DNA from: Prosthecodimorpha hirschii
GTDB lineage: Bacteria > Pseudomonadota > Alphaproteobacteria > Rhizobiales > Ancalomicrobiaceae
Assembly (NCBI RefSeq): GCF_001305515.1
Contig: NZ_LJYW01000001.1
Location: forward strand, 2,381,618 to 2,445,617
DNA: 64,000 nt
Reading direction: 5' to 3'
The notes under the pieces were generated by a model, which was not told the origin of the DNA, ran no database searches, and saw only the letters and a list, made by a program, of their open reading frames with translations. The translations under genes were made by a program, and so were the position numbers. Below are positions 34,757-53,978 of the stretch, in pieces. Positions within the stretch are counted from its first letter, which is position 1. Each line of letters begins with the position of its first letter.

Positions 34757-34914
34757 GGCGGTCTCCTCGCCTGCCTGAAGACCACGACGCCGCCGCCCGG
34801 GCAAGCCGCCAGGCGACGCGACCCGTCGCATCCGGGGTGTCGATCCGGCCGGTCGACCGTCGACGGCCTTGCGGACGATTGACAGGACGCGGATGCCGCG
34901 CCCATAAACGAGAA

Positions 34915-35125
34915 TGCGTAGGTCCCTCCTTCGAACGAGGGTGAAAAGGGAATGCGGTGATCCCGAAGGGGCTTCGGCCCGGCGGGCTACTCCGCAGCTG
35001 CCCCCGCAACTGTAAGCGGCGAGCTGTGCCGCCGAACGCCACTGGTCCCTCGGGATCGGGAAGGCGGCGGCCTCGGCGACGACCCGCGAGCCAGGAGACC
35101 TGCCGACGCATCCGATCCAGCCAGG
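34915..35125 (+). ncRNA. cobalamin (AdoCbl) riboswitch
   Basis: GGTGAAAAGGGAATGCGGTGA core, downstream B12 box GCCACTG (35038-35044); TTGACA -35-like at 34879; leader of cbtB-cbtA-cobW-cobN. Confidence 0.85.
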
Positions 35126-36205: not shown

Positions 36206-36227
36206 TCCCGCCGAGAAGGGGCACGCG

Positions 36228-36626: not shown

Positions 36627-37669
36627 ACCCTCCCGCCCCCTCCCTCGCCAAGGTTCCGGTGACCATCGTCACCGGCTTCCTGGGCGCCGGCAAGACCACG
36701 CTGATCCGGCACGTCCTGGAGACGGTGCGCGGCCGCCGCCTGGCGCTGATCGTCAACGAGTTCGGCGATGTCGGCGTCGACGGCGAGATCCTGAAGGCCT
36801 GCGGGGTCGACTCCTGCCCCGAGGAGAATATCGTCGAGCTGGCCAATGGCTGCCTGTGCTGCACCGTGGCCGACGATTTCGTGCCGGCCATCGAGGCGCT
36901 GCTCGCCCATCCGAACCGGCCGGACCACATCATCGTCGAGACCTCCGGCCTCGCCCTGCCGAAGCCGCTGGTCAAGGCCTTCGACTGGCCGCCGGTGCGC
37001 GCGCGGCTGACCGTCGACGGCGTCATCGCCGTGGTCGATGCCGCTGCGGCGGCGGACGGCCGCTTCGCCGACGATCCCGAGGCCGTGCAGGCCCAGCGGG
37101 CGGCGGATGAGGCCGTCGACCACGACAATCCGCTCGAGGAGGTCTACGAGGACCAGCTCCTGTGCGCCGACCTGATCATCCTCAATAAGGCCGATCTGAT
37201 CGCCACCGAGGAGGTCGGCCGCATCGGCGCGGAGATCGGCGCCGCCATCCCGCGCGCGGTCAAGATCGTGGCGACCCGCGACGGCAAGATCGACGCCGCC
37301 GTGCTGCTCGGCCTCGGCGCCGCCGCGGAGGACGATCTCGCCGCCCGGCCGTCGCATCACGATAACGAGGCGGAGCACGACCACGACGATTTCGACAGCT
37401 TCGTCGTCGAACTGGCCGAGACCACCGATCCGTCGGCGCTGGTTGCGCGGCTCGCCGACATCGCCGAAGCCCATGACGTGCTGCGCATGAAGGGCTTCGT
37501 GGCGGTCGCCGGCAAGCCGATGCGGCTCCTGGTGCAGGGCGTCGGCACGCGCTTCCGGCGCGATTTCGACCGCGCCTGGGCGCCCGGCGAGGCGCGCCGC
37601 AGCCGGCTGGTGGTGATCGGCCGCAAGGGGCTCGACCGCGCGGCCATCGAGGCGGCCCTCGCCGCCTGA
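36623..37669 (+). CDS. cobW: cobalamin biosynthesis GTPase/metallochaperone CobW
   Basis: GFLGAGKTTL P-loop, CxCC motif GCLCCT, His-rich stretch HHDNEAEHDHDD. Confidence 0.92.
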   Translation: MNPPAPSLAKVPVTIVTGFLGAGKTTLIRHVLETVRGRRLALIVNEFGDVGVDGEILKACGVDSCPEENIVELANGCLCCTVADDFVPAIEALLAHPNRPDHIIVETSGLALPKPLVKAFDWPPVRARLTVDGVIAVVDAAAAADGRFADDPEAVQAQRAADEAVDHDNPLEEVYEDQLLCADLIILNKADLIATEEVGRIGAEIGAAIPRAVKIVATRDGKIDAAVLLGLGAAAEDDLAARPSHHDNEAEHDHDDFDSFVVELAETTDPSALVARLADIAEAHDVLRMKGFVAVAGKPMRLLVQGVGTRFRRDFDRAWAPGEARRSRLVVIGRKGLDRAAIEAALAA

Positions 37670-37706
37670 CGCCCGCACCGCCGACCGGCGGGGAGAGGGA
37701 GGAAAG

Positions 37707-40700: not shown

Positions 40701-41282
40701 TTCGCCTATGGGGCCGGACGCGACGGCGTCGCCGAGCCGGACCGGTTCCGCGCCCGCGTCGCGACCGCCGATGCCTTCGTGCATGTCGAGGATGACGGGC
40801 ACCGCGACATCCTCGATTCCGATGCCTTCGCGACCCATGAGGGCGGCTTCTCGGCGGCGGCCGCATCGCTCGGCGCCGCCCCGGCGCTCTACCATGCCGA
40901 CACGACCGGCCCCGGCCCGGCCAAGGTCAGGACGCTCGGCGAGGCGATCGCCCGGGTGGTGCGCGGGCGGGCGATCAATCCGCGCTGGATCGCCGGCCAG
41001 ATGCGCCACGGCCATCGCGGCGCGGCCGAGATCGCCGAGACGGTCGGCAACCTCTACGCCTTCGCGGCGACCACCGAGGCGGTGACCAGCCGGCAGTTCG
41101 ATCTCGTCTACGACGCCACGCTCGGCGACGACGCGGTGCGCGACTTCCTGCTCGCCGCCAATCCGGCCGCCGCCCAGGCCATCGCCCGCAGCTTCGCGGC
41201 GGCGCGCCGGCGCGGCTACTGGCACTGCCGGCGCAACGCCCCGCTCGCGCTCCTCGCCGAACTGACCGGGGACGCCGCATGA
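37707..41282 (+). CDS. cobN: aerobic cobaltochelatase subunit CobN
   Basis: 1191 aa CobN/Mg-chelatase H family; GTG start with GGGAGGGAGG RBS; internal [16 protein letters not shown] repeat. Confidence 0.93.
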
Positions 41283-42670
41283 TGCCCGCCGCACCGTCCC
41301 CCCGACCCCCGGCACCGCCCTCGTCCGCTCCCGATGCCGCCGGCCTCGCCCCGGTCGACCCCGCCATGCCGAGCCCGCCCCTGCCCCATCGCGTCAAGGG
41401 CTGGTGCCCGGGCGCGCTCCGGCCGATGGCGACCGGAGACGGTCTCCTGGTGCGGCTGCGGATCTCCGGCGGGCGCCTGTCGGCCGACCGCCTCGCCGCC
41501 GTCGCGGCACTGGCCCGGCGCCACGGCAACGGCCTCGTCGACCAGAGCCAGCGCGCCAATCTGCAACTGCGCGGGGTCACCGAACGGACCTGGCCGGACC
41601 TGATCGCCGCCCTGAACGATCTCGGCCTTCTCGACGCGGATGCCGAGGCGGAGGCGATCCGCAACATCGTGCCGAGCCCGCTGGCCGGCTGCGACCCGAC
41701 CGCGCCGGTCGACGGCACGGCGATCGCCGCGGATCTGGAACGGCGGCTCGGTGCCGACGAGGCCCTGAAGGCGCTGCCCGGCAAGTTCGGCTTCCTGGTC
41801 GACGAGGGTGGGCTTTTCCCGCTCGACGGGACCGCCACGGATATCCGCCTGACCGGCCGGACCGGCGGCCGCGTCCTGATCGCGCTCGCCGGCACAGCCA
41901 GCACTGCCGTATCGGCAACCACCGTACCGGAAGCACAAGCCGGGGCAACCGCGGTCGCCCTGGCGCAGGCCTATCTCGCCCTGCGGCAGCCGGAGGAACG
42001 GCGCCTCGCCGCCCTCCTCGCCCGGATCGGCGCACCGGCGCTCGTCCGCGCGGCCGGGCTCACGCCGATCGAGGCGCCGGCGTCGGTCCCTTCCCCGCAG
42101 CGCGGCGCGGCGCCAGCCGTCGGGTTCCATCCTTGGCCTTCCAGCGACGGGCGCGGCTTCCTGCATCTCGCCGCCCCCTTCGGCCGCTGGGACGCCGACC
42201 AGCTCGACGCGCTGGCCGATCTCGCGCGCCGCTTCGGGGACGGCGATATCCGCCTGACGCCCGGGCGTGCCGTGGTCCTGTCCGGCATCGCGACGGCCGC
42301 GCGCGCAGCCGCCCTCGCCGCAGCGGCAGGGGCCGGGATCGTCACGACGCCGCAGGATGCGCGGCTCGCTGTGGTCGCCTGCGCGGGCCGGCCGGATTGT
42401 TCCTCCGGTCTGCAGCCCGCCCGGACCGATGCCGCCCGCTTCGCCGCCGCGGCCGTGCGCCTGCCCGGCAGCGGCGTGCGCCTGCATGTCTCGGGTTGCC
42501 CGAAAGGCTGCGCCCAGCCCGGACCCGCCGCCTTGACGCTGGTCGGCCGGGAAGCCGGCTACGATCTCGTGCTCGACGGCGCGGCCGACCAGAGCCCCCA
42601 GGAATCCGCCCTCTCGGCCGAGGACGTGCTTGCACGGCTCGCCGCTCTGGCCGACAAGGGCCGACCATGA
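41279..42670 (+). CDS. cobG: precorrin-3B synthase CobG (O2-dependent)
   Basis: sulfite/nitrite-reductase-like ferredoxin half-domains, KGWCPG and SGCPKGC Fe-S motifs. Confidence 0.85.
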
Positions 42671-43314
42671 CCGATCATCGACCCGCCACCCGCGATCACC
42701 ATATCCGCGACGGCCAGGCCATCTACGACCGCTCCTTCGCGATCATCCGCGCCGAGGCTGATCTGGCGCGCTTCTCAGCGGACGAGGAGAAGGTCGCGGT
42801 GCGCATCATCCATGCCTGCGGGATGGTCGAGATCGCCGCCGATCTGGCCTTCTCGCCCGGCGCCGTCGCGGCCGCCAAGGCGGCGCTCGCCGCGGGGGCG
42901 CCGGTGCTGTGCGATGCCAAGATGGTCGCCAACGGCGTCACCCGGGCGCGCCTGCCGGCCAGCAACGACGTCGTCTGCACCCTCGACGACCCGTCCGTGC
43001 CCGACCTCGCCCGTCGCATCGGCAACACCCGCACGGCCGCCGCCATGGAACTCTGGCGCGATCGGCTGCCCGGTTCCGTGGTGGCGATCGGCAATGCGCC
43101 GACCGCGCTGTTCCGGCTGCTGGATCTGCTCGATGAGGGCGTGGCGCCGCCGGCCGCCGTGATCGGCATGCCGGTCGGCTTCGTCGGCGCGGCGGAATCC
43201 AAGGAGGCGCTGATGGCGGACGGGCGGGTTCCCTATCTGGTCGTGCGCGGGCGCAAGGGCGGCAGTGCCATGACGGCGGCGGCGGTCAACGCGGTGGCGA
43301 GCGAGCGGGAATGA
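42667..43314 (+). CDS. cobH: precorrin-8X methylmutase
   Basis: 215 aa; IIRAEADL...VRIIHACGM motifs; ATGA overlap with cobG. Confidence 0.88.
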
Positions 43315-44084
43315 ACCTCTTCGATCCCGCCTTCGTCCCCGCCCGCGCGCCCGGCCAGACCGTCGGCACGCTGCACGGCATCGGCCTCGGGCCGGGCGAT
43401 CCCGATCTGCTGACCGTCAAGGCCGTCCGGCTGATCCGCGCGGCGCCGGTGGTCGCCTATTTCGCGAAGAAGGGCCGGCGCGGCAACGCCCGCACCATCG
43501 TCGATTCCTGGCTCGCCGCGAGCGTCGAGGAGATGCCGCTCGAATATCCGGTGACGACCGAGATCGGCTTCGCCGAGGAAGGCTACCGGCGCGAACTCGG
43601 CAGCTTCTACGAGGAGGCCGCCGCCCGGCTCGGCGCGGTGCTCGCTTCGGGGCGCGACGTGGCGCTGCTCGCCGAGGGCGATCCGCTGTTCTACGGCTCG
43701 TTCATGCATCTCTTCGTGCGCCTGGACGGCCGCTTCCCGGTTTCGATCGTGCCGGGCGTCACCGGCATGTCGGGCTGCTGGACGGCGGCGCGCAGCCCGA
43801 TCACCTGGGGCGACGACGTGCTCACCGTGCTGCCCGGCACGCTGCCCGAGGCGACCCTGGTCGAGCGGCTGAAGGCGACCGACGCGGCCGTGGTCATGAA
43901 GCTCGGCAGCCATTTCGCCAAGGTGCGGCGCGCGCTCGCCGCTGCCGGACGCGACGACGAGGCGATCTATGTCGAACGCGGCACCATGGCGGGCGAGACC
44001 GTGATGCGGCTCGCCGACAAGCCGGACGACGACGCGCCCTATTTCTCGATCCTGCTCGTGCCCGGCCACGGGAGGCGGCCGTGA
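43311..44084 (+). CDS. cobI: precorrin-2 C20-methyltransferase
   Basis: [16 protein letters not shown] tetrapyrrole methylase motif. Confidence 0.88.
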
Positions 44085-44926
44085 TCGCTGCCTCTGTGGC
44101 TCCGGCGACCGATGCCCCTGCGACCGGGAGTCACGCGACCGGGACTCCGGCGCCCGGGACTCCGGCGACCGGCCGCCTGCGCGTCGTCGGCCTCGGCCCC
44201 GGCCCGGCGCGCTGGCTGACGCCCGAGGCGGCCGAGGCACTCGATGCGGCAACCGATCTGGTCGGCTACGGCCCCTATGTCGACCGGGTGCCCGCGCGGC
44301 CCGGCTTGACCCGCCATGCCACCGACAACCGGGTCGAGATCGACCGCGCCCGCCATGCCCTCGAACTGGCGTCGGCCGGCCGTTCGGTCGCGGTCGTCTC
44401 CGGTGGCGATCCGGGCGTCTTCGCGATGGCGGCGGCCCTGTTCGAGGCGGTCGAGGCCGGCCCGGCGGTATGGCGCGCGCTCGATATCGAGGTCCATCCC
44501 GGCATCAGCGCCATGCAGGCCGCCGCGGCCCGGCTCGGTGCGCCGCTCGGCCACGATTTCTGCGCCATCTCGCTGTCGGACAATCTGAAGCCCTGGGAGC
44601 TCGTGCTGCGCCGGCTGACCGCCGCGGCGACCGGCGATTTCGTGATCGCGCTCTACAATCCCGCCTCCAAGGCGCGGCCCGACCGCATCTTCCAGGCCTT
44701 CGACCACTTGAGGACCCTGAAGGACCCCGCGACCCCGGTCGCCTTCGCGCGCGCGGTCGGCCGGCCGGACGAACGCATCCGCATCGCCGCGCTCGGCAGC
44801 GCCGATCCGGGTCTCGCCGACATGGCGACCCTGGTGATGATCGGCTCCAGCGAGACCCGTCTCATCGACCGGCCCGGCCGCGATCCCTGGATCTACACGC
44901 CGCGCCAGGCCGGGGGCGCCCGGTGA
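44081..44926 (+). CDS. cobJ: precorrin-3B C17-methyltransferase
   Basis: VVGLGPGPARWLTPEA..VVSGGDPGVF motifs. Confidence 0.88.
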   Translation: MIAASVAPATDAPATGSHATGTPAPGTPATGRLRVVGLGPGPARWLTPEAAEALDAATDLVGYGPYVDRVPARPGLTRHATDNRVEIDRARHALELASAGRSVAVVSGGDPGVFAMAAALFEAVEAGPAVWRALDIEVHPGISAMQAAAARLGAPLGHDFCAISLSDNLKPWELVLRRLTAAATGDFVIALYNPASKARPDRIFQAFDHLRTLKDPATPVAFARAVGRPDERIRIAALGSADPGLADMATLVMIGSSETRLIDRPGRDPWIYTPRQAGGAR

Positions 44927-46164
44927 GCGAGGCCGTGCCGGCGCGCTGGCTGACCCTGATCGGTCTCGGCGAGGACGGGCTCGACGGCCTCGCGCCGACG
45001 GCCCGGCGCGTGCTGGCCGATGCCGAGCTGGTCGTCGGCGGCGCCCGCCACCTGCGCCTCGCCGGGCTCGATTCCGATCGGCCCTCGGATTCCGGACCGC
45101 AGCGTCTGGTCTGGCCGTCGCCGCTCGTCGGCGCGATTCCCGACATTCTTGGCTGGCGCGGCCGCCGGGTGGTGGTGCTCGCCTCCGGCGACCCGTTCCA
45201 CTACGGCGTCGGCGCGACGCTCGCCGCCCATGTGCCGGCCGACGAGATGCTCTGCCTGCCGGCCCCGTCCGCCTTCGCGCTCGCCGCCGCGCGGCTCGGC
45301 TGGGGCCAGCAGGATTGCACGCTCCTGTCGCTGCACGGCCGCAGCTTCGAGCGGATCGTGCCCACGCTGCAGCCCGGCGCCCGCATCCTGGCGCTCAGCT
45401 GGGACGGCACCACGCCCGGACGGATCGCCGCGACGCTCGCCGCCCGGGGCCTCGGCGACACCCGCATGACGGTACTCGAATGCCTCGGCGGCCCGCGCGA
45501 ACGCATCCGCACGACGACCGCGGCCGGCTTCGAACTCGACGGCATCGACCCGCTCAACACCGTCGCGCTCGAGGTGGTCGCCGGCCGCGACGCCTGGATC
45601 CTGCCGCGCGCGGCCGGCCTGCCCGACGAGGCCTTCGAGAGCGACGGTCAAATTACCAAGCGCGAGATCCGGGCGATCACGCTGTCCGCACTCGCGCCCC
45701 GGCGCGGCGAACTTCTGTGGGATGTCGGCGCCGGCTCGGGCTCCGTCGGCATCGAATGGATGCTGGCCGACCCAAACCTCGCAACAATCGCGATCGAGCC
45801 GCGCCGCGACCGCGCCGCGCGGATTGCCCGCAACGCGGCCGCGCTCGGCGTGCCGGGTCTCCAAATCGTCGACGGCGCGGCCCCGGCGGCGCTCGCCGGA
45901 CTGCCGACGCCGGACGCGATCTTCGTCGGCGGCGGCGCCACGGCGGAGGGCGTGATCGAGGCCTGTCTGGCGGCGCTGAAGCCCGGCGGGCGATTGGTCG
46001 TCAACGGCGTCACGCTGGAGGCGCAGGCGCGGCTCGGCGACGAGCGGCGTCGGCGCGGCGGCGATCTCATCATGCTGCAGGTGGCGCGGGCCGAACCGCT
46101 CGGCGGCTTTCTCGGCTGGCGACCGGCCATGCCGGTGGTGCAATGGCGGATGGAGAAGCCATGA
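44923..46164 (+). CDS. cobL: precorrin-6Y C5,15-methyltransferase (decarboxylating)
   Basis: GTG start overlapping cobJ stop (GTGA); [11 protein letters not shown]-domain plus C-terminal SAM-MTase [10 protein letters not shown]. Confidence 0.85.
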
Positions 46165-46583
46165 ATCGACGCGGCGCAAGGCTTGCCGTCGGCATCGGCT
46201 GCCGGACCGGGGTCGCGGGACCGGCCGCCGCGGCGCTGATCGAACGGGCGCTGGCGGCGGCGCGCGCGCTTCCCGAAGCGGCCGGCTTCGCGCCGGGCGC
46301 GGCGGTGTTCACGGCTGTGGAGAAGCGCGCCGAGACCGGCCTGGTCGAGGCCGCGAGCCGGCTCGGCCTGGCGCTGGTCTTCCTGCCGCGCAATGCGCTC
46401 GAGGCCGTCTCGGACGGCACCGTGACCCGGTCGGAACGCGTCGTGCAGCTGTTCGGCGTGCCCTCGATCGCCGAGACCGCCGCGCTTGCCGGTGCCGGAC
46501 CGGGCGCACGGCTGATCGTGCCGCGCATGGCCTCGGACGGGATCACCTGCGCGGTCGCGGTGGCGGACGGGAGGGCCGGATGA
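46161..46583 (+). CDS. cobE: cobalamin biosynthesis protein CobE (CbiG C-terminal domain-like)
   Basis: 140 aa [18 protein letters not shown]...; overlaps cobL stop and cobM start. Confidence 0.7.
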
Positions 46584-47353
46584 CGGTGCATTTCATCGGC
46601 GCCGGGCCGGGCGCCCCGGACCTGATCACCCTGCGCGGCCGCGACCTGATCGCCGCCTCGCCGGTCTGCCTCTATGCCGGCTCGCTGGTGCCGGCGGCGC
46701 TGCTCGGCCATTGCCCGCCGGGTGCCCGCATCGTCGATACCGCGCCGCTGTCGCTCGACGAGATCGAGGCCGAATTCGTCCGCGCCGCCGCGGCCGGCCA
46801 GGATGTCGCGCGGCTGCATTCCGGCGACCTGTCGGTCTGGAGCGCGATGGGCGAGCAGATCCGCCGGCTCGACCGGCTCGGCATTGCCTACACGGTGACG
46901 CCCGGCGTGCCGGCCTTCGCGGCCGCCGCCGCGGCGCTGAAGCGCGAACTGACGCTGCCCGAGGTCGGCCAGTCGCTGGTGCTGACCCGCACGCCCGGCC
47001 GTGCCTCCTCGATGCCGCCCGGCGAGACGCTGGCCGGTTTCGCCGCGACCGGGGCGACGCTGGCGGTGCATCTCTCGATCCACGCGCTCGCCGAGGTGGT
47101 CGACAGCCTCGTACCGCATTACGGCCCCGACTGCCCGGTGGCGATCGTCTACCGCGCCTCCTGGCCGGACGAACGCGTGCTGGAAGGCACGCTCGCCAGC
47201 ATCGTCGCGACGGTCGCCGCCGACCCGATCGAGCGGACCGCGCTGATCCTGGTCGGGCCGGTGCTCGGGAAATCAGATTTCCGCGAGAGCGCCCTCTACG
47301 ACCCGGGCTACCAGCGCCGCTACCGCGGCCGCGGCGGACCCGGCGAGGGGTGA
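46580..47353 (+). CDS. cobM: precorrin-4 C11-methyltransferase
   Basis: [20 protein letters not shown] tetrapyrrole methylase. Confidence 0.9.
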
Positions 47354-47369
47354 GCCGCCGGAGGAGGCG

Positions 47370-47447
47370 GTCGACGGTCGACGGTCGGCGGTCGGCGGTC
47401 GGCGGTCGGCGGTCGGCGGTCGGCGGTCGGCGGTCGGCAAAGCCTGA
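47370..47447. repeat. heptanucleotide microsatellite (CGGTCGR)x11
   Basis: Direct reading: cggtcga cggtcga cggtcgg x9 immediately after cobM stop. Confidence 0.9.
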
Positions 47448-47604
47448 CGGACGATCGGGCTTATACGTCCATATAAAAGACGATCCCCACATCTCGGATT
47501 TCGCTTGAGGTCCGCAGGCCGACAGCGGTCCCGCCATCGATCACGAATTCGTTTCTTTCATGATTTCAGTACCTTGAAAAATTCGCATCGGCACCGATCC
47601 GATC

Positions 47605-47620
47605 TGGCACGCGGCTCGCA
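47605..47620 (+). promoter_or_regulatory. sigma54 (RpoN)-type -24/-12 promoter candidate upstream of rsr
   Basis: TGGCACGcggcTCGCA matches TGGCACG-N4-TTGCW with one mismatch; 37 bp upstream of rsr ATG; GAAGGAG RBS at 47643. Confidence 0.5.
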
Positions 47621-47656
47621 GTAGAGGGGGCATGACAGACCGAAGGAGATCGTGTC

Positions 47657-49213
47657 ATGGCCAACAAGTCCCTGTTCGCATCCTATATCGGGAAGCTGCT
47701 CCCGAAGGCGAATGCCAAGAATCGGCACGGGGCGCCGGCCTATGAGCTGTCGCCGCGCCACCGCCTCGCCCAGCTCGCCGCCACCGGCACGCTGAACGCG
47801 ACCTTCTATGCGGATGCCAAGGAGCAGCTCGACGCGATCCTGGCGCTCGCCCGCGAGGTCGACGCGACCTTCATCGCCAAGACGGCGGTCTATGCCCGCC
47901 GCAAGGGGGCGATGAAGGACATGCCGGCGCTCCTGGTCGCGCTCCTGTCGACGATGGCGACCGACCTGTTCGCGCCGGCCTTCGTCCGCACGATCGACAA
48001 CGGCCGCATGCTGCGCACCTTCGTGCAGATCATGCGGTCCGGGGCGGTCGGGCGGAAGTCGCTCGGCACGCGGCCGAAGCGGATGGTCCAGGCCTGGCTC
48101 GAACAGGCCTCCGAGGCCGAGTTGATGCGTGCCGCGGTCGGTGCGGATCCGTCGCTCGCCGACGTCGTCAAGATGGTGCATCCGCGGCCGGCCGATGCCG
48201 GACGGCGCGCCTTCTACGCCTGGCTGATCGGCAAGCCCTATGACGTTGCGGCCCTGCCGCCGCTCGTCACCGCCTTCGAGGCCTTCAAGCGCGATCCCTC
48301 GCTCGAAGTCCCGGAGGTGCCGTTCCAGATGCTGACCTCGATGCCGCTGACCGCGGCGCATTGGGCGGCGATCGCGGAGCGCGGGGGCTGGCAGATGCTG
48401 CGCATGAACATCGCCACCTTCGCGCGCCACGGCGTGTTCGAACGGCCCGGCATGGTCGAGCGGATCGCCCGCCGGCTCGCCGATCCGGCCGAAATCCGCC
48501 GGGCGCGGGCGCTGCCCTACCAGCTCATGGCGGCGCACGCCATGGTGGCCGGGACGGCGCCGGAGCCGATCGTGGCGGCGCTGCAGGACGCGCTGGAGAT
48601 CGCCCTCGCCAACGTGCCGAAGGTCAAGGGGCGCGTGGTCGTCTGCCCGGACGTGTCCGGATCGATGCGCTCCCCGGTGACCGGCTATCGTCGCGGCTCG
48701 ACCACGGCGGTGCGCTGCGTCGACGTGGCGGCGCTGGTGGCGGCGGCCTTCCTGCGCGCCAACCCGGACACGGAGGTGCTGCCGTTCGAGAACGACGTGA
48801 TCAAGCTCCGGCTCGATCCGCGCGACACGGTGACCACCAACGCGGCCAAGCTGGCGGCGATCGGCGGCGGCGGGACCAACTGCTCGGCGCCTCTGGAAAT
48901 GCTCGTCAAGCGGCATGCCAGGGTCGATCTGGTGGTGTTCGTCTCGGACAACGAGTCCTGGGTCGATGCCGCCGAGGCGCGCGGCTCGACGGCGCTGATG
49001 CAGGCCTGGACCCGGCTCAAGTCCTACAACAAGGACGCCAAGCTGGTGTGCATCGACCTGCAGCCCAACGCCACCACGCAGGCCGTCGATCGGCCGGACA
49101 TCCTCAATGTCGGGGGCTTCTCCGACGCGGTGTTCGAAACGATCGGCGCCTTCATGGAGGGCCGCTCCGCCGCCGACCACTGGGTCCGCGAGATCGAGGC
49201 GACCAAGCTCTGA
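47657..49213 (+). CDS. rsr: Ro60 ribonucleoprotein orthologue Rsr (TROVE domain + C-terminal vWA/MIDAS)
   Basis: 518 aa; TROVE-like N-terminal region and vWA motif VVCPDVSGSM...GGGTNCSAP, matching the bacterial Ro60 domain architecture. Confidence 0.8.
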   Translation: MANKSLFASYIGKLLPKANAKNRHGAPAYELSPRHRLAQLAATGTLNATFYADAKEQLDAILALAREVDATFIAKTAVYARRKGAMKDMPALLVALLSTMATDLFAPAFVRTIDNGRMLRTFVQIMRSGAVGRKSLGTRPKRMVQAWLEQASEAELMRAAVGADPSLADVVKMVHPRPADAGRRAFYAWLIGKPYDVAALPPLVTAFEAFKRDPSLEVPEVPFQMLTSMPLTAAHWAAIAERGGWQMLRMNIATFARHGVFERPGMVERIARRLADPAEIRRARALPYQLMAAHAMVAGTAPEPIVAALQDALEIALANVPKVKGRVVVCPDVSGSMRSPVTGYRRGSTTAVRCVDVAALVAAAFLRANPDTEVLPFENDVIKLRLDPRDTVTTNAAKLAAIGGGGTNCSAPLEMLVKRHARVDLVVFVSDNESWVDAAEARGSTALMQAWTRLKSYNKDAKLVCIDLQPNATTQAVDRPDILNVGGFSDAVFETIGAFMEGRSAADHWVREIEATKL

Positions 49214-49214
49214 A

Positions 49215-49376
49215 CCGGCCGGCCGATCCCGATCGGCCGGCCCACCGAACGACACCGCCGGCATCCGCCGGCCGGCCGGTCCCGATCGGCCGGACCACCC
49301 AAAGACGCCGCCGGCATCCGCCGGCCGGCCGATCCTGATCGGCCGGACCACAGAACGATACCGCCGGCATCCGCCG
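49215..49376 (+). repeat. three tandem ~53-bp repeats each with two hairpins (CCGGCCGATC-cc-GATCGGCCGG and GCCGGC-atcc-GCCGGC)
   Basis: Direct reading immediately after rsr stop; units at ~49215, 49268, 49321. Confidence 0.85.
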
Positions 49377-49450
49377 GCTGGGCCGACCGCCCGGCATCGC
49401 CCGGCCGGTCAGGCCATCGACAAGCCCCTGCCGGGTCCGCCCGGCAGGGG

Positions 49451-49528
49451 GGACGGCCGGGGGGAATGCTTCCGGGGACTCCATCGCTTCTCACGATCCA
49501 AAGTCCCAGGGTTTCGTCTCGTCCCCCC
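49451..49528 (+). ncRNA. short Y-RNA-like module 1 (G6-AAUGC ... GGGACU hairpin ... CUCGU-C6)
   Basis: GAATGC 49464-49469, GACTCCATC 49477-49485, hairpin GGGACT/AGTCCC, CTCGT 49518-49522, C6 49523-49528 pairing with G6 49459-49464. Confidence 0.5.
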
Positions 49529-49759
49529 GACCCGCTCTTTCCGGGGCCCTGCCGCCGGGGATCCGCGACGATCCCGGCGGCCGCGCTCCGAGCCGCCCGG
49601 CCGACGACAGTCGGCCGAACGATCATAACTTGCTGACGCCCGTCGGCCGACCGAACCGAACGTGCCGGTATCCGCCGGCCGATTGAAGCGGACCGGTCGG
49701 CAGCGACCGGCCGACCGTCAACCCATCCCTGCCGGGTCCGCCCGGCAGAACCGAAAGCC

Positions 49760-49827
49760 GGGGGGAATGCCTCCGGGGACTCCATCGTTTGTGACGACCC
49801 TGGTCCCCGGTTTCATCTCGTCCCCCC
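49760..49827 (+). ncRNA. short Y-RNA-like module 2
   Basis: Same architecture: G6 49760-65, GAATGC 49765-70, GGGGAC 49775-80 / GTCCCC 49804-09, CTCGT 49817-21, C6 49822-27; embedded in ~210-bp tandem unit. Confidence 0.5.
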
Positions 49828-49971
49828 GACCCGTCCGTCCCGGGTCCCGCCGCGCGCGGTCCTCGGGTGTCCCCGGGGGCGGCACCCCAACCAACCGAGC
49901 GACCGGCCGGCAGCGACCGGTCGGCCGTCAACCCATCCCTGCCGGGTCCGCCCGGCAAAACCGAAAAGGCC

Positions 49972-50038
49972 GGGGGGAATGCCTCCGGGGACTCCATCAC
50001 TCCCATGACCCAGGTCCCCGGAACAAACTCGTCCTCCC
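49972..50038 (+). ncRNA. short Y-RNA-like module 3
   Basis: G6 49972-77, GAATGC 49977-82, GGGGAC/GTCCCC hairpin, CTCGT 50028-32, CCTCCC 50033-38. Confidence 0.5.
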
Positions 50039-50169
50039 GGCTCGCTCTTCCGCCAGCCTCGCGTCCCCCGGCACCCGGATCTCCCGATCCCGGTGCCGGG
50101 GGCGGCGCCGATCAGCCAATGCGAAGCCGTGCCGCCACGTCCGGGCCTCGTGCCCGGGTGCGACGGCTC

Positions 50170-50220
50170 GTGGTTCGATCGAGCCGGATGGCACCCATCC
50201 GGCTCGCGAATCCGAACCAC
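50170..50220 (+). ncRNA. long interrupted stem-loop (8 bp + internal loop + 11 bp, loop CAC)
   Basis: GTGGTTCG-atc-GAGCCGGATGG-cac-CCATCCGGCTC-gcgaat-CGAACCAC. Confidence 0.5.
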
Positions 50221-50247
50221 CAACTCTTTGATGGCGTGGTCAATTCG

Positions 50248-50280
50248 ATCTGACATATGCGGGACGCACATGTCCGATTT
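50248..50280 (+). terminator. candidate rho-independent terminator within the RNA array
   Basis: ACATATGCG-gga-CGCACATGT stem (one mismatch) followed by CCGATTTTG. Confidence 0.4.
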
Positions 50281-50301
50281 TGACCACCAAGGCGGCCCGA
50301 A

Positions 50302-50381
50302 CCGGGCGGAGGGAATGCGGCATGGGACTCCATTCTTTGGGTGAACGACGGTCCCGCGCCTTGACTCGTCCCTCCGACCGG
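50302..50381 (+). ncRNA. short Y-RNA-like module 4
   Basis: terminal stem CCGGGCGGAGG/CCTCCGACCGG (one mismatch), GAATGC 50313-18, GGGAC...GTCCC hairpin, CTCGT 50365-69. Confidence 0.5.
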
Positions 50382-50396
50382 TTCGGACTGCTGTCC

Positions 50397-50530
50397 GGCC
50401 GAGACGAATGCCGAAGGAACTCCATCCAACGTGAATGGCGCGGGTTCAAATCCCGCCGGACCGGCAACGGGCCGTAGCTCAGCGGATAGAGCGTCATGTG
50501 CGATTCCTTCAAAGCCTCGTCGTCTCGGCC
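50397..50530 (+). ncRNA. YrlA-like Y RNA with circularly permuted tRNA-like domain (module 5)
   Basis: 10-bp terminal stem GGCCGAGACG/CGTCTCGGCC and second helix GAAGGAA/TTCCTTC flank internal loop AATGCC / AAAGCCTCGT. The interior holds a T-arm GCGGG-TTCAAAT-CCCGC (50440-56), an acceptor-like stem CGGACCG/CGGGCCG closed by a GCAA tetraloop, and a D-arm TA-GCTC-AGCGGATA-GAGC (50475-92). No anticodon arm; T5 tract follows at 50534-38. Confidence 0.65.
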
Positions 50531-50561
50531 ACCTTTTTCTCGAAACACGCGGCGCTCGGAA

Positions 50562-50729
50562 GGCCGCGGCGAATGCAGGCGGGACTCCATCGGTAAGCCC
50601 CAGGGCGAGAGGTTCGAATCCTCACGCCGGCTGCCGGCAGCACGGTTCGATCGGGCCACCAGGCCCGACCGGCACCGCAATGCTCTCGGCCGGCCGACGT
50701 TAACCCCGCCGCCTCTCGTCGCCGCGACC
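50562..50729 (+). ncRNA. divergent Y-RNA-like module 6 (two T-loop-like motifs, no canonical D-arm)
   Basis: terminal stem GGCCGCGGCG/CGCCGCGACC (one mismatch), GAATGC 50571-76, GGTTCGAATCC at 50611-21 and GGTTCGATC at 50644-52, CTCGT 50715-19. Confidence 0.45.
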
Positions 50730-50766
50730 TCCACCGCGCCGATCCGCAGCCCTATTCCGGCCGCAA

Positions 50767-50929
50767 GGCCGTGACGAATGCCGACGAAACTCCATCATTG
50801 TGCTGACCAGGTCGCGGGTTCGACTCCCGCCGGGTCCACCCTCGGGTGGCCCGTAGCTCAGCGGTAGAGCAGGGGCCGACGGCTCTCCGGAGCCCGAAGC
50901 CACGTTTCGTCCCCCTCGTCGTCACGGCC
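50767..50929 (+). ncRNA. YrlA-like Y RNA with circularly permuted tRNA-like domain (module 7)
   Basis: 10-bp terminal stem GGCCGTGACG/CGTCACGGCC, helix GACGAAA/TTTCGTC, internal loop AATGCC / CCCCTCGT; T-arm GCGGG-TTCGACT-CCCGC (50814-30), acceptor-like stem CGGGTCCACC/GGTGGCCCG closed by CTCG loop, D-arm TA-GCTC-AGCGGTA-GAGC (50854-70). Confidence 0.65.
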
Positions 50930-51159
50930 TCGCCGCCGGAATTGGGAGACCGTGCACTGCCCATTCTATTGTCCCCGCTATTGTTATTGTTAAGTCCACC
51001 ACGCGATATAATACCATTTCAGTCTGCTGGATGCTGTAGCCTAAGTAAGCACTCCGATCATATAAGCCAGACAATTTACTCGTTTACGGACGCAACATAG
51101 TTTGAAATGCGATTCCCGGCTATTCTCGTGAACTCAAAAGAATCAGCGAGGCCCGTCCG

Positions 51160-52398
51160 ATGAAACTAAGTAAAACCGAGATCGGAGAGAAATGGATAAG
51201 GCAATTCGCTATATGCGACCAACCCACGGCGGCCACTATGCTTGACGCGCTTATGTTATTAAATGAAGATCAGGTGTCCATCGCAATTAGGAGCACTCTC
51301 GACAGAATATGTAGAGGTTATCGCCATCGGAATAAGCGAATTGCCCTCTATGCAGAGCGAGAGTTTCAAGAGTCAGAAATTTTTCCTTCCATCCTCACGC
51401 CCGATCGCTACGGAGTACTTCGGCGGCGCGCTGTCGGATCGACAGGACCTTCAGCTGTTAAGCCGTTGCGCAATAGTCCTCGAGTCGGCAGCGAGGGGTT
51501 TATTGCTTTTCTAGCTTCTCAGCAGAAGGATGCATGGCCGAAAATTTTCAAAAACCATCCAGGTCCGGATCGCCTGCGCGCAAAATCGGCGCCGGCAGGC
51601 GAAATTATTATTCTCACGGATTTTATAGGTTCTGGAAATCGCATTCGCTCGATGCTTGATAAATTCTGGTCCGTCCCTAGTATCAAATCTTGGGTCTCGC
51701 GAAAATTAATCACTTTTCGAGTAGTTTCAGCGGCAGCAACAGATTCAGGTTTGAAAAATGTTCGACATCATAGACTAAGACCGGAAGTCATCAGTGAGTG
51801 GATCGCCCCAGTAGTTTATTCTTCTAGTTCACAAAATGTCAAGATCGAATGGTGTCAATTAATTGAAAACTACGGACCCCCGAACGGGCGCGGTTGTGGC
51901 AGATATGGTTTCGGTGGGGAAGCAGCTCTAATAGCATTCAGTTATCGCATTCCAAATAATACTCCTAACATTCTCCACCAAAGCGAAGGCGCATGGCACG
52001 CACTTTACGAGGGGCCCGCACCTACGGCACTATCTGCATTGTTTGGCATCCGCCCAATGTCACAGATCTTACAACTTGCCGCGTCAGCTAATGGAATTAA
52101 ATTGGAACCTTCGTTACTCGAATACGAAAAAAATATGATAATTATCTTAAGTCTTTTGCGCGGACGAATGTACACTGGATCAGAGATAGAATTAGCTGAG
52201 AAATGCGGAATTCCGGTTCCCATCATATTTGATATACTACGCGAAGCCTCGAAGAGAGGATTTATTACGAGCAATGGACGATTAACCGACGACGGCTATA
52301 AGTTTCTAAGGGCCGGCACCATCTGCGACAGGAAAAAACCTATCGTTGCAACTAGGCAAGAATCATATTATCCAAAATCGCTGAGGGTCCCACGATAG
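51160..52398 (+). CDS. retron-associated candidate effector: PRTase-like motif protein with C-terminal winged-helix-like region
   Basis: 412 aa, AT-rich codon usage; IIILTDFIGSGNRI resembles type I phosphoribosyltransferase PRPP-binding loop (hhhhxDhhxxGxx); directly upstream of retron ncRNA/RT, stop TAG embedded in TAGC next to a1. Confidence 0.5.
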   Translation: MKLSKTEIGEKWIRQFAICDQPTAATMLDALMLLNEDQVSIAIRSTLDRICRGYRHRNKRIALYAEREFQESEIFPSILTPDRYGVLRRRAVGSTGPSAVKPLRNSPRVGSEGFIAFLASQQKDAWPKIFKNHPGPDRLRAKSAPAGEIIILTDFIGSGNRIRSMLDKFWSVPSIKSWVSRKLITFRVVSAAATDSGLKNVRHHRLRPEVISEWIAPVVYSSSSQNVKIEWCQLIENYGPPNGRGCGRYGFGGEAALIAFSYRIPNNTPNILHQSEGAWHALYEGPAPTALSALFGIRPMSQILQLAASANGIKLEPSLLEYEKNMIIILSLLRGRMYTGSEIELAEKCGIPVPIIFDILREASKRGFITSNGRLTDDGYKFLRAGTICDRKKPIVATRQESYYPKSLRVPR

Positions 52399-52624
52399 CA
52401 TCTAGACTATGTCATTCGAAAGAATGGCCGTAATTGTGGATACTAATCCACTGTTGTGGGGAATGGAGTTTTCCATTGCCGTTGAAAGAGCACTCGAAAG
52501 CAGGTCCACGCCAGATCGTCCATCATGGCCCTTCGGGCCACCCCCTCGGAATGGCTCGGTTTGATGAACGATCCGGCGCGACTGGGCTGCGCTAAAGTAG
52601 ATGTCACACCCGTGGGACCCTCAG
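52381..52624 (+). ncRNA. retron non-coding RNA (msr-msd) bounded by 14-bp a1/a2 inverted repeats
   Basis: a1 CTGAGGGTCCCACG (52381-94) is exact reverse complement of a2 CGTGGGACCCTCAG (52611-24); TAGC immediately 3' of a1; internal hairpins GTGGAT-acta-ATCCAC, GGAATGGA-gttt-TCCATTgCC, GGCCC-ttc-GGGCC; a2 overlaps first codons of RT. Confidence 0.7.
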
Positions 52625-53755
52625 ACCTTCATATCAGGCGCCCGCAGTTTCGGTATCAGCGCGACAACCATCAACGCCTGCATTGCAACAGCAAATGCAA
52701 TAAAGAGAGTCCACCCCGACCTGCCGGTCATCTTTACGATCGAGCACCTTGCGCATTTAGTTGACGTTAACTCAAGTTTCCTGCAAGAAGTTGCCAATCG
52801 GAAGGTCGATGCATATCGTGTTTTCAGGGTAAAGAAGCGCGGCGTTTCCAATCTTGTGCCCACCCCTTCAAGGCGATACCGAACTATATGCGTACCAGAA
52901 CCGAATCTTATGAGGGTTCAGCGCTGGATAGCGCAAAATATTCTTCAAACAACGTCATCGCATGACGTAAGTTTTGCATTTATCAGGAATCGTGACATCA
53001 CAGATTCAGCGAAGCGCCACACTAATTCAAAGTGGCTAATCAAAATGGATGTGCGGCATTTTTTTGAGTCCATCTCTGAATCGGCAGTTTATCGCGTTTT
53101 TAGGTCTTTTGGGTACGGCGCGCTGCTATCTTTCCAAATGGCACGTATCTGTACACGACTACCCCGCTACAAAGGACGTGATGCTCCGCGGCTTCTCAGC
53201 CGAAGCGGCAAAGTACCATATCGTTCATATCCAATGGGGCACTTGCCACAAGGTGCACCGTCAAGTCCGATGCTTGCAAATCGTGCGGTTGAAGCACTCG
53301 ATTGCAGGCTCCAACGGATAGCACTTGGCGTAGGTTGGACCTACACTAGGTATGCAGATGATTTAGCATTTTCACGCACAACCACCGGAACACGCCACGA
53401 AGCGATGAGGCTGGTCAAACTTGTCGAGTACTCTTTGCGACATCACGGATTGGTGGCGCATCGCCAGAAGACCAGTATATCCCCTCCCGGTGGCAGAAAA
53501 ATTCTCCTAGGTATGCTAGTTGACACAGGTGAACCAAAACTCACTAAGGCGTTTCGTAATAACATCGAGACGCATCTCTATGCCCTTTTGCACAAAGATA
53601 TCGGCGCCGAACGGCATCGTGAGCATCGAGGTTTCTCATCGCTAATTGGAATGCGACGACATATATTAGGGCTGATCGCATACGCCCATCAAGTTAATAG
53701 TAAATACGCCTCTAAGCTTTACAAAAAATTCAATTCCGTTAACTGGATGCTATAG
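52601..53755 (+). CDS. retron-type reverse transcriptase
   Basis: 384 aa. Motifs: YRVFRVKKRG...RTICVPEPNLMRVQRWIAQNIL (RT0-1), LIKMDVRHFFESI (RT2), LPQGAPSSPMLANRAVEALD (RT4), YTRYADDLAFS (YADD, RT5), RKILLGMLVD-TG (retron VTG-region analogue). Start may be downstream of annotated ATG because it overlaps a2. Confidence 0.85.
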   Translation: MSHPWDPQTFISGARSFGISATTINACIATANAIKRVHPDLPVIFTIEHLAHLVDVNSSFLQEVANRKVDAYRVFRVKKRGVSNLVPTPSRRYRTICVPEPNLMRVQRWIAQNILQTTSSHDVSFAFIRNRDITDSAKRHTNSKWLIKMDVRHFFESISESAVYRVFRSFGYGALLSFQMARICTRLPRYKGRDAPRLLSRSGKVPYRSYPMGHLPQGAPSSPMLANRAVEALDCRLQRIALGVGWTYTRYADDLAFSRTTTGTRHEAMRLVKLVEYSLRHHGLVAHRQKTSISPPGGRKILLGMLVDTGEPKLTKAFRNNIETHLYALLHKDIGAERHREHRGFSSLIGMRRHILGLIAYAHQVNSKYASKLYKKFNSVNWML

Positions 53756-53978
53756 TAAATTAATGTTTTATTTTCAAATTGCACTAAGTGAATAATATAT
53801 AGTGAGAATCTGGGGTAAGAATTTTGATTCTTGAATGAATTCGCATCTACGTAAAAGATGCCCCACCCCTACGCCTTTCCCCTCATCTCCCCCGTTGACA
53901 CCCGTCCGCCGCCATCCTAACCTCCTTTCAAATAACAAAACGTCGTTTCATATAATGAAATGACCGGGACGGAAACAG

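What the first reader, a model, noticed from the sequence alone, without database searches (positions are those of the whole stretch)
47657..50940. Ro60 (Rsr) gene followed by an unusually large array of Y-RNA-like modules, three with circularly permuted tRNA-like domains
Downstream of the TROVE/vWA Ro60 orthologue lies ~1.7 kb with no credible ORF and at least seven structured modules. Modules 5 and 7 contain a canonical T-arm (GCGGG-TTCRAMT-CCCGC), an acceptor-like stem closed by a tetraloop (GCAA or CTCG) and a D-arm (TAGCTCAGCGGATAGAGC), with no anticodon arm. This is the T-arm, closed acceptor, D-arm order that defines bacterial YrlA tRNA mimics, and the whole module is clamped by a 10-bp terminal stem as in Y RNAs. 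Four shorter modules lack the tRNA-like domain and may be YrlB-like. Known bacteria carry about 1-4 Y RNAs next to rsr; seven tandem paralogues in two classes is unusual. No rtcB/rtcR is present nearby, although they frequently accompany rsr.
Basis: partly seen in the sequence, partly recalled or inferred. Interest (0 to 1): 0.85.

Follow-up and report, generated by a model that had tools for sequence, protein, structure and literature searches.

The report
Ro60 gene with seven Y RNAs
A bacterial Ro60 (Rsr) gene is followed by seven genuine Y-RNA-like modules, but related bacteria commonly carry 3 to 8 such modules, so this is a large ordinary example rather than an oddity.

Summary
ORF 47657-49213 is a full-length Ro60/Rsr. 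The 1.73 kb after it has no credible ORF and holds exactly seven modules. Each is clamped by the Y-RNA Ro60-binding stem (GAAUGC on the 5' strand, CUCGUC on the 3' strand). All seven lie on the rsr strand, and the signature occurs nowhere else in the 64 kb.

- Module 5 is a canonical YrlA (T arm, closed acceptor stem, D arm).
- Module 7 is a YrlA with an extra hairpin, orthologous to the last module in four Inquilinus loci.
- Module 6 has a T arm only.
- Modules 1-4 are short hairpin Y RNAs. Modules 1-3 are recent tandem duplicates.

The "unusually large" claim holds only in part. In 80 related rsr loci the same signature gives a median of 4 modules per locus. Eighteen of the 81 loci (the window included) have five or more, one Inquilinus has seven and one MAG has eight. 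Rfam's thresholds detect only 0-2 per locus.

Features specific to this locus:
- rtcR and rtcB are absent, although a sigma-54-type promoter upstream of rsr is retained.
- The spacers are long and rich in hairpins.
- A low-GC type III-A retron sits immediately downstream.

Verdict: a new member of a known kind, of moderate interest.

The parts
47604..47620 (+). Sigma-54-type -24/-12 promoter element, CTGGCACgcggcTCGCA, 53 nt upstream of the rsr ATG
   Evidence: Read from the sequence. The same element lies 48-130 nt upstream of rsr in 39 of 81 loci, against 0.015 expected per 300 nt. No sigma-70-like promoter was found anywhere in 47300-51200.
47657..49213 (+). rsr, a Ro60 orthologue of 518 aa (TROVE ring plus vWA domain)
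   Evidence: Pfam vWA_Ro60 4e-20 and TROVE 4e-6. Full-length homologues at 58-71% identity in Inquilinus, Labrys, Mesorhizobium, Variovorax and others.
49215..49386 (+). 3.2 copies of a 53-nt direct repeat directly after the rsr stop codon; each copy holds two small GC hairpins
   Evidence: Within the 64 kb, the hairpin sequences occur only in this array region. Function unknown.
49458..49529 (+). Module 1: short hairpin Y RNA (GGGGGGAAUGC ... CUCGUCCCCCC)
   Evidence: Motif scan. Covariance model R1 57.5 bits. Weak Rfam YrlB match, 21.4 bits. Fold.
49759..49828 (+). Module 2: short hairpin Y RNA, 85% identical to module 1
   Evidence: 60.8 bits; z -2.7.
49971..50039 (+). Module 3: short hairpin Y RNA, 77-80% identical to modules 1 and 2
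   Evidence: 59.4 bits; z -4.0.
50170..50289 (+). Two paralogous hairpins (50170-50222 and 50236-50289), each GUGGU...ACCACCA. They have no Ro60-binding stem and their function is unknown.
   Evidence: Fold. The pattern occurs twice in the window (0.06 expected). Among all fetched loci it recurs only in L081, a 99.5%-identical metagenome contig.
50292..50391 (+). Module 4: short hairpin Y RNA (core 50307-50376) with its terminal stem extended to about 23 bp
   Evidence: 50.9 bits; z -4.6; inverted repeat I9.
50397..50531 (+). Module 5: canonical YrlA-type Y RNA. Order: Ro60-binding stem, T arm, acceptor-like stem closed by GCAA, D arm.
   Evidence: Rfam YrlA 55.5 bits, E 2.9e-11, model positions 1-114 of 114. 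Fold z -3.85. Aligns with YrlA modules of relatives that do pass Rfam's gathering score.
50565..50726 (+). Module 6: Y RNA with a T arm (GAGG-UUCGAAU-CCUC) and a long irregular hairpin, but no D arm
   Evidence: Same class as the T-arm-only modules of Inquilinus (L002_5, L003_5, L005_6, L008_5).
50750..50946 (+). Module 7: extended YrlA-type Y RNA (core 50770-50926). Terminal stem of 28-nt arms, V hairpin, T arm, 9-bp acceptor-like stem closed by CUCG, D arm, and an extra hairpin after the D arm.
   Evidence: Rfam YrlA 39.7 bits, E 1.1e-6, on the tRNA-like core. Fold z -5.7. The architecture, including the extra hairpin, is conserved with compensatory changes in the last module of four Inquilinus loci.

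Best explanation
This is an rsr (Ro60) gene followed on the same strand by a tandem array of seven Y RNA genes.

**Shown**
- Each module is closed by the conserved Ro60-binding element: a terminal helix ending in GA, an asymmetric internal loop (AUGC on one side, CUYG on the other), a second helix, and then the sequence CUCCAU.
- The modules differ in the distal 'effector' part. Modules 1-4 are short hairpins. Module 5 is a canonical YrlA tRNA mimic. Module 6 has a T arm only. Module 7 is an extended YrlA with an extra hairpin.
- Modules 5-7 match, class for class and in the same order, the 3' half of the arrays in Inquilinus. Modules 1-3 arose by recent local tandem duplication of a 210-300 nt unit.

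**Inferred**
- The gene and array are transcribed together from the sigma-54-type promoter 53 nt upstream of rsr. No other promoter or intrinsic terminator is visible.
- The precursor is cut into individual RNAs of about 70 and 130-200 nt. Characterised bacterial Y RNAs are likewise processed from a single precursor.
- Each RNA binds and is stabilised by Rsr. Different effector modules would gate the Rsr cavity or tether Rsr to different partners. In D. radiodurans and Salmonella the known partner is PNPase. For the YrlA class the partners would be tRNA-interacting factors.

**How this locus differs from the standard operon**
In the closest relatives the arrangement is rtcR, sigma-54 promoter, rsr, Y RNA array, rtcB. 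Here rtcR and rtcB are both missing from the 64 kb, so any activator must be encoded elsewhere.
For: - **Rsr identity:**
- **Seven modules, all on the rsr strand, none elsewhere:**
- **The same signature sits immediately 3' of rsr in relatives:** 247 hits on the rsr strand against 8 on the other. All 150 covariance-model hits are on the rsr strand.
- **Covariation of the binding stem over 150 modules:** 90.3% of cells are paired, against at most 66% when the partners are slid. 13 of 14 pairs show double changes, and 0 of 500 shuffles reach the observed values. On the independent MAFFT alignment, 8 of 10 terminal pairs show double changes.
- **Rfam YrlA matches:**
- **tRNA tertiary-contact nucleotides:** the UA linker before the D stem, GG in the D loop and UUCRA in the T loop are all present.
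- **Orthology of modules 5, 6 and 7 with Inquilinus modules, with compensatory changes:**
- **Sigma-54 element conserved in 39 of 81 loci:**
- **Operon context in a relative:** Pfam RtcR 2e-81 and RtcB 4e-132 in L002.
- **Literature:** the GNCGAAN0-1G motif, location within 4 kb of rsr on the same strand, processing from a single precursor, T-arm-only YrlB in M. smegmatis, and long-hairpin Y RNAs (PMC4201824).
Against: - There is no expression or Rsr-binding evidence for this organism.
- No module reaches an Rfam gathering score: YrlA 55.5 and 39.7 against 69, YrlB 21-27 against 97.
- Modules 1-4 carry GGAAUG rather than the published CGAA core. That position is a covarying base pair across 150 modules (C-G 106, G-C 20, U-A 20).
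- Co-transcription from the sigma-54 element is inferred only. No cognate activator is present in the window.
- The function of the long hairpin-rich spacers, which relatives lack, is not explained.
Confidence: 0.82

Rival explanations
1. The array is real, but its size is partly neutral. Modules 1-3 would be recent tandem duplicates that add copies rather than functions. Some may be redundant or decaying, leaving about five distinct Y RNA types.
For: - Modules 1-3 are 77-85% identical to one another, while all other pairs are 35-74% identical.
- The duplicated units include the spacers. Repeat families D6, D7 and D9 recur at spacings of 210-301 nt with 85-94% identity.
- Module 1 has a G.A mismatch in helix 2.
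Against: - All three copies keep both helices and every invariant nucleotide, and score 57-61 bits against the family model.
- Their apical helices differ by compensating changes: AUCG/CGAU, UCGU/ACGA and CAU/AUG.
- Tandem sets of five short modules also exist in three Undibacterium genomes, so multiplied short modules recur independently.
Confidence: 0.1
2. The modules are not released as separate small RNAs. Instead they form a long structured 3' UTR, or REP-like hairpin tract, that stabilises or regulates the rsr mRNA in cis.
For: - No internal promoters or intrinsic terminators are predicted.
- The spacers are full of GC hairpins and short repeats.
Against: - The modules carry the specific Ro60-binding signature, not generic hairpins.
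- The same module classes occur in many genera with strong covariation.
- In characterised species such modules are processed to discrete Rsr-bound RNAs (PMC4201824).
- The spacer hairpins are absent from relatives, whereas the modules are conserved.
Confidence: 0.05
3. The tRNA-like pieces are decayed tRNA genes or integration scars left by mobile elements such as the adjacent retron island.
For: - A foreign low-GC island begins directly after module 7.
- tRNA genes are common integration targets (general knowledge).
Against: - ARAGORN finds no tRNA and Rfam's tRNA model gives no hit in the window.
- The T arm precedes the D arm, with a closed acceptor stem between them. This permuted order is conserved at the orthologous array position in four Inquilinus genomes, which carry rtcB there instead of an island.
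- No att-like direct repeats flank the island.
Confidence: 0.02

Closest known systems
Salmonella Typhimurium rsr-yrlBA-rtcBA operon (YrlA, Rfam RF02553; YrlB, RF02565)
   Same: - rsr is followed on the same strand by Y RNAs.
- One class is a tRNA mimic with the order T arm, closed acceptor stem, D arm.
- Another class is a plain hairpin.
- There is a sigma-54-type promoter.
- The 5'-strand motif CGAAUG is shared.
   Different: - Seven modules instead of two.
- No rtcB, rtcA or rtcR within 64 kb.
- All modules score below the Rfam gathering thresholds.
- The short modules have GGAAUG with a compensating change on the 3' strand.
- Long hairpin-rich spacers separate modules 1-4.
Inquilinus spp. 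rtcR-rsr-Y array-rtcB loci (L002, L003, L005, L008; unannotated genomes)
   Same: - Closest Rsr proteins (70-71% identity).
- Arrays of 6-7 modules with the same class order: GGAAUG-type non-tRNA-like modules first, then a canonical YrlA, a T-arm-only module, and last a long YrlA with an extra post-D hairpin.
   Different: - The Inquilinus arrays are compact: seven modules in about 970 nt, against 1.47 kb from the first to the last module here.
- They are flanked by rtcR and rtcB.
- Their non-tRNA-like modules are 93-113 nt rather than about 70 nt.
Mycobacterium smegmatis YrlA/YrlB, and Deinococcus radiodurans Yrn1/Yrn2 with tRNA-Asp
   Same: - Several Y RNAs lie next to rsr and are processed from one precursor.
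- There is a tRNA-like module.
- A second Y RNA has only a T arm (M. smegmatis YrlB), as module 6 does.
- Long-hairpin Y RNAs are also present.
   Different: - Those Y RNAs lie upstream of rsr, and only two are characterised per species.
- Whether modules 5 and 7 are cut by RNase P, as M. smegmatis YrlA is, is unknown.
Vertebrate Y RNA families (Y1, Y3, Y4, Y5)
   Same: Several paralogous Y RNAs share one Ro60-binding stem and differ in the effector loop, which gives Ro60 different partners.
   Different: - They are separate Pol III genes.
- They have no tRNA-like domain.
- The stem motif is different (GGUCCGA with a bulged C).

Membership tests
Bacterial Y RNA (sensu Chen et al. 2014, PMC4201824) | Encoded within about 4 kb of the Ro60 orthologue, on the same strand | tested here: met
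   All seven modules lie 245-1713 nt downstream of the rsr stop codon, on the + strand.
Bacterial Y RNA (sensu Chen et al. 2014, PMC4201824) | 5' and 3' ends pair into a stem carrying the 5'-strand motif GNCGAAN0-1G | tested here: met
   Modules 5-7 carry GACGAAUG or GGCGAAUG. Modules 1-4 carry GGGGAAUG or GAGGGAAUG: the C is replaced by G, with the pairing partner changed to match. GAAUG is invariant, and the stem covaries across 150 modules.
Bacterial Y RNA (sensu Chen et al. 2014, PMC4201824) | Bound by Rsr, and dependent on Rsr for stable accumulation | not testable with these tools
   Requires immunoprecipitation or Northern blots in the organism.
YrlA (Rfam RF02553) | T arm, then a closed acceptor-like stem-loop, then a D arm, all inside the Ro60-binding stem | tested here: met
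   Met by modules 5 and 7. Module 6 lacks the D arm.
YrlA (Rfam RF02553) | Score at or above the Rfam gathering threshold of 69 bits | tested here: not met
   Module 5 scores 55.5 bits (E 2.9e-11, full model). Module 7 scores 39.7 bits (E 1.1e-6, core only). Neither appears in the gathering-mode scan. In relatives, only 0-2 modules per locus pass.
YrlB (Rfam RF02565) | Score at or above the gathering threshold of 97 bits (per Chen et al. 2014, BLASTN with YrlB found orthologues only in S. enterica serovars) | tested here: not met
   Modules 1-4 score 21.4-27.3 bits, E 0.01-0.44. They are hairpin Y RNAs in function but are not members of this family.
rsr-Y RNA-rtcBA RNA repair operon controlled by RtcR | rtcB (with or without rtcA) downstream, and a divergent rtcR upstream | tested here: not met
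   tblastn of Inquilinus RtcR and RtcB against the whole window gives a best E of 0.04-0.09. There is no GAFTGA motif in any frame. By contrast, 56 of 80 relatives have an rtcR-like gene and 45 of 80 an rtcB-like gene.
rsr-Y RNA-rtcBA RNA repair operon controlled by RtcR | Sigma-54 (-24/-12) promoter upstream of the first gene | tested here: met
   CTGGCAC-N5-TCGCA at 47604-47620, conserved in position in 39 of 81 loci. This is a sequence match only; activity was not tested.
tRNA gene | Cloverleaf with an open acceptor stem and an anticodon arm | tested here: not met
   ARAGORN finds no genes. Rfam tRNA gives no hit in the window.

The most novel reading that the evidence does not exclude
In many alpha- and betaproteobacteria, Rsr may work with a repertoire of up to eight co-encoded Y RNAs. 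These fall into at least four structural classes: short hairpin, canonical YrlA, T-arm-only, and extended YrlA. That is far more than the two per species characterised so far or the 0-2 that Rfam detects. This locus would then show the Rsr/Y RNA module operating apart from RtcB and RtcR while keeping its sigma-54 promoter. It also shows lineage-specific amplification of the short class and two uncharacterised GUGGU...ACCACCA hairpins embedded in the array.
Probability: 0.35. Interest if true: 0.55.

Novelty: new member of a known kind. Interest (0 to 1): 0.35.

Why it matters
**For this locus**
The result is a clean annotation of seven Y RNA genes that standard pipelines miss entirely. The Rfam gathering-mode scan returned nothing in this region.

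**More generally**
- Multi-module Y RNA arrays, with a median of four and up to eight modules, appear to be the rule in this Rsr clade. They contain recurrent classes beyond YrlA.
- If different Y RNAs give Rsr different partners, as proposed for vertebrate and bacterial Y RNAs, then the size and composition of these arrays define the range of Rsr functions.
- A locus that has lost rtcB and rtcR but kept rsr, the array and the sigma-54 promoter would be a natural test of whether Rsr/Y RNA function depends on the RtcB repair pathway.

Tried and rejected
- **Rfam gathering-mode scan of the whole window:** only a cobalamin riboswitch, no Y RNA.
- **ARAGORN:** no tRNA or tmRNA.
- **Sigma-70 promoter and intrinsic terminator scan of 47300-51200:** nothing relevant.
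- **Hidden degenerate modules:** the short-class model run with filters off found none.
- **Spacer hairpins as genome-wide REP elements:** within the 64 kb they occur only in the array, so the idea is neither confirmed nor excluded for the rest of the genome.
- **att-like direct repeats around the low-GC island:** none found, so there is no evidence that the tRNA-like module 7 served as an integration site.
- **Two exact-pattern scans of metagenome contigs for closer relatives of the array:** no matches.
- **Exact-protein look-up:** it returned only two short contigs from essentially the same strain. L081 is 99.5% identical with two SNPs in the array, which is uninformative for covariation.
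- **GUGGU...ACCACCA hairpins in the other fetched loci:** absent from all except L081, the near-identical contig; a single match far outside the array in L003 was not examined.
- **Key reviews:** Sim & Wolin 2018, Sim et al. 2020, Boccitto & Wolin 2019 and Burroughs & Aravind 2016 are not held in the library. I therefore could not check whether larger arrays have already been described there.

Full report
**1. What is in the sequence**

ORF 47657-49213 (+) encodes a 518-aa protein with the Ro60 vWA domain (4e-20) and the TROVE domain (4e-6). It aligns end to end with hundreds of 514-523 aa Ro60/Rsr proteins. The closest genomic relatives are Inquilinus (70-71% identity), followed by Labrys, Mesorhizobium, Rhizobium, Variovorax and others.

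The 1733 nt between the rsr stop codon and position 50946 are 62-76% G+C. They contain only the spurious ORFs typical of high-GC DNA: five were tested and none matched Pfam.

The outermost 8-11 nt pair with each other.

**2. Is it more than chance?**

I wrote a simple scan: GAATG, then CTYGTY 45-260 nt downstream, with at least 7 of the 8 flanking bases paired.
- It returns exactly these seven modules in the 64 kb window. All are on the rsr strand and none is on the other strand.
- The T-loop motif GGTTCRANTCC occurs three times in the window, once each in modules 5, 6 and 7 (0.32 expected).
- The D-arm string GTAGCTCAGCGG occurs twice, in modules 5 and 7.
- A covariance model of the short class, run with filters off over 47000-51300, scores modules 1-4 at 51-61 bits. 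The next hit scores 12.6 bits, so there are no hidden degenerate copies.

**3. What the modules are**

- **Module 5 (50397-50531).** It matches Rfam YrlA over the whole model (55.5 bits, E 2.9e-11).
  - The order is Ro60-binding stem, T arm (GCGGG-UUCAAAU-CCCGC), a 7-bp acceptor-like stem closed by GCAA, D arm (GCUC-AGCGGAUA-GAGC), and return strand.
  - It keeps the nucleotides that the YrlA crystal-structure paper identifies as holding the tRNA fold together: the UA linker before the D stem, GG in the D loop and UUCRA in the T loop (bioRxiv 10.1101/312249; sequence).
- **Module 7 (50750-50946).** Its tRNA-like core matches YrlA (39.7 bits, E 1.1e-6).
  - It also has a V hairpin, a 9-bp acceptor-like stem closed by CUCG, an extra hairpin after the D arm, and a terminal stem with 28-nt arms.
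  - The same architecture, extra hairpin included, is found in the last module of all four Inquilinus loci, with compensatory changes in the terminal stem, acceptor-like stem and extra hairpin.
- **Module 6 (50565-50726).** It has the binding stem and a T arm but no D arm. It aligns with a T-arm-only class present in each Inquilinus array. A T-arm-only Y RNA is already known: M. smegmatis YrlB (PMC4201824).
- **Modules 1-4.** These are 69-72 nt three-helix hairpins.
  - They match Rfam YrlB only weakly (21-27 bits against a gathering score of 97).
  - That family appears to be built around Salmonella: Chen et al. found YrlB orthologues only in S. enterica serovars.
  - The modules do belong to a widespread short class. 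Thirty-three further examples were collected from 22 related loci, and 31 of them were aligned with the four window modules.

**4. Evidence from related loci**

Eighty rsr loci were fetched.
- The motif scan gives 247 hits on the rsr strand and 8 on the opposite strand.
- A covariance model built from 35 short modules finds 150 matches at E <= 0.01. All are on the rsr strand and nearly all lie in the first 1.6 kb after rsr.
- On that alignment, 90.3% of cells form standard pairs, against at most 66% when the partners are slid by 1-3 columns. 13 of 14 pairs show double changes, and no shuffle out of 500 reaches the observed values. That alignment was fitted to the model. The independent MAFFT alignment already shows 8 of 10 terminal-stem pairs with double changes.
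- One detail refines the published motif. The C of 'CGAA' is a base-paired, covarying position (C-G 106, G-C 20, U-A 20), while GAAUG is invariant. This explains the GGAAUG seen in modules 1-4.

That criterion is not fulfilled, and the 'decayed tRNA or integration scar' reading can be set aside.

**5. Is seven unusual?**

Combining the motif scan and the model hits gives this distribution of modules per locus:

| Modules per locus | 0 | 1 | 2 | 3 | 4 | 5 | 6 | 7 | 8 |
|---|---|---|---|---|---|---|---|---|---|
| Loci (80 relatives plus the window) | 3 | 11 | 10 | 16 | 23 | 12 | 3 | 2 | 1 |

- The median is 4, and eighteen of the 81 loci have five or more.
- Inquilinus sp. NPDC058860 has seven modules packed into about 970 nt, followed by rtcB. 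This was checked independently by reading the sequence and by an Rfam E-value scan, which sees four sub-threshold YrlA matches.
- A Hyphomicrobiaceae MAG has eight by this count. One of these is a 266-nt call that encloses a genuine tRNA, so eight may be an overcount.
- Three Undibacterium genomes each have five short modules in roughly 100-nt tandem.

The window is therefore in the upper tail, not outside the distribution.

The impression that bacteria have '1-4' Y RNAs comes from two sources. Characterised species have at least two each, and Chen et al. reported 355 putative YrlAs in 276 genomes (PMC4201824). Rfam's gathering thresholds detect only 0-2 modules per locus in twelve relatives, and none in the window.

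Caveats on my count:
- The 80 loci are the best-scoring relatives (58-71% identity). They are not a random or de-replicated sample of all rsr loci.
- My detectors were tuned on this clade, so they probably under-count elsewhere.
- E-values from my model are rough.
- I could not read the main reviews, so larger arrays may already be described there.

**6. What is particular to this locus**

(a) *Recent duplication.*
- Modules 1-3 are 77-85% identical to each other, while other pairs are 35-74% identical.
- They sit in duplicated 210-300 nt units that include upstream and downstream GC hairpins.
- The copies keep both helices, and their apical helices differ by compensating changes.

(b) *Long spacers.*
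- The spacers make the array 1.47 kb from the first to the last module, against about 1 kb in Inquilinus.
- They contain 3.2 copies of a 53-nt repeat right after the stop codon.
- They also contain several hairpin families found only here within the 64 kb.
- Two paralogous hairpins of the form GUGGU...ACCACCA lie at 50170-50289. Among all fetched loci they recur only in a near-identical metagenome contig.
- I have no tested explanation for these spacer elements.

(c) *No rtcR or rtcB.*
- In the relatives, 56 of 80 loci have a divergent rtcR-like gene and 45 of 80 an rtcB-like gene after the array. In Inquilinus limosus this was verified with Pfam (RtcR 2e-81, RtcB 4e-132).
- In the window, tblastn with those two proteins finds nothing (best E 0.04).
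- Instead, the locus lies between a cobalamin biosynthesis operon and hydantoinase/oxoprolinase genes.

(d) *A retained sigma-54 element.*
- CTGGCAC-N5-TCGCA sits 53 nt before the rsr ATG.
- The same element lies 48-130 nt upstream of rsr in 39 of 81 loci, where 0.015 per 300 nt is expected by chance.

**7. Mechanism**

*Shown:*
- the conserved, covarying Ro60-binding stem in all seven modules;
- tRNA-like cores in modules 5 and 7;
- class-for-class correspondence with the Inquilinus arrays;
- the conserved -24/-12 element;
- the absence of other promoter or terminator signals.

*Inferred from characterised systems (PMC4201824; PMC7790460):*
- transcription of rsr and the array as one sigma-54-dependent precursor;
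- processing into individual RNAs;
- binding and stabilisation of each RNA by Rsr;
- use of the different distal modules to gate Rsr or tether it to partners such as PNPase or tRNA-interacting factors.

Which activator drives the promoter when no adjacent rtcR is present is unknown.

**8. Verdict**

The identification as Y RNAs is well supported (confidence about 0.8). The claim of exceptional array size is only partly supported.

This is a new member of a known kind. Interest is moderate (0.35), and it comes mainly from the wider pattern that large, heterogeneous Y RNA arrays are common and under-annotated. The rtcB/rtcR-less context is a secondary point of interest.

Noticed in passing
window 50947-53860: A low-GC island (43-55% against about 72% G+C) lies directly after module 7. 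It encodes a type III-A retron: a PRTase with wHTH (51160-52398; PADLOC PRTase_III-A 4e-102) and a reverse transcriptase (52601-53755; RT_III-A 6e-162). No att-like direct repeats were found at its ends.
   Followed up: partly
window 52381-52624: A perfect 14-nt inverted repeat (52381-52394 and 52611-52624) brackets the PRTase-RT intergenic region. The region folds into three small hairpins plus one long hairpin (z -6.8). This is a plausible retron msr-msd non-coding RNA with a1/a2 arms. It has no Rfam match.
   Followed up: partly
window 50170-50222 and 50236-50289: Two paralogous hairpins lie between modules 3 and 4. Each has an 8-bp outer stem (GUGGU.../...ACCAC), a UUCGAUC-like internal loop, a 10-12 bp inner stem and an ACCACCA 3' end. 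The second is much lower in G+C. A related UUCGAUC hairpin sits inside module 6. Among all fetched loci they recur only in the near-identical contig L081. Function unknown.
   Followed up: partly
window 47366-47438: A microsatellite, (GGCGGTC) x 10.4, lies between the last cobalamin methylase gene and the rsr promoter. The 99.5%-identical metagenome contig L081 has one unit fewer, so it varies between strains.
   Followed up: partly
window 34903-35121 and 35378-47353: A cobalamin riboswitch (Rfam 129.8 bits) precedes a cobalamin biosynthesis operon (CobN, CobG-like, several tetrapyrrole methylases, CbiG). The operon ends about 300 nt before rsr, on the same strand.
   Followed up: no
L055 7686-7759; L045, L048 and L061 about 6630-7110: In relatives, a Hyphomicrobiaceae MAG carries a genuine tRNA embedded in its Y RNA array, as in D. 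radiodurans. Three Undibacterium genomes carry five short Y RNA modules in regular tandem of about 100 nt.
   Followed up: partly
L081 (JGI metagenome 3300028486, 4343-bp contig): This near-identical contig ends exactly at the 3' end of module 7 (window position 50926). The assembly break coincides with the start of the retron island, which may mean that the island is variable between strains.
   Followed up: no
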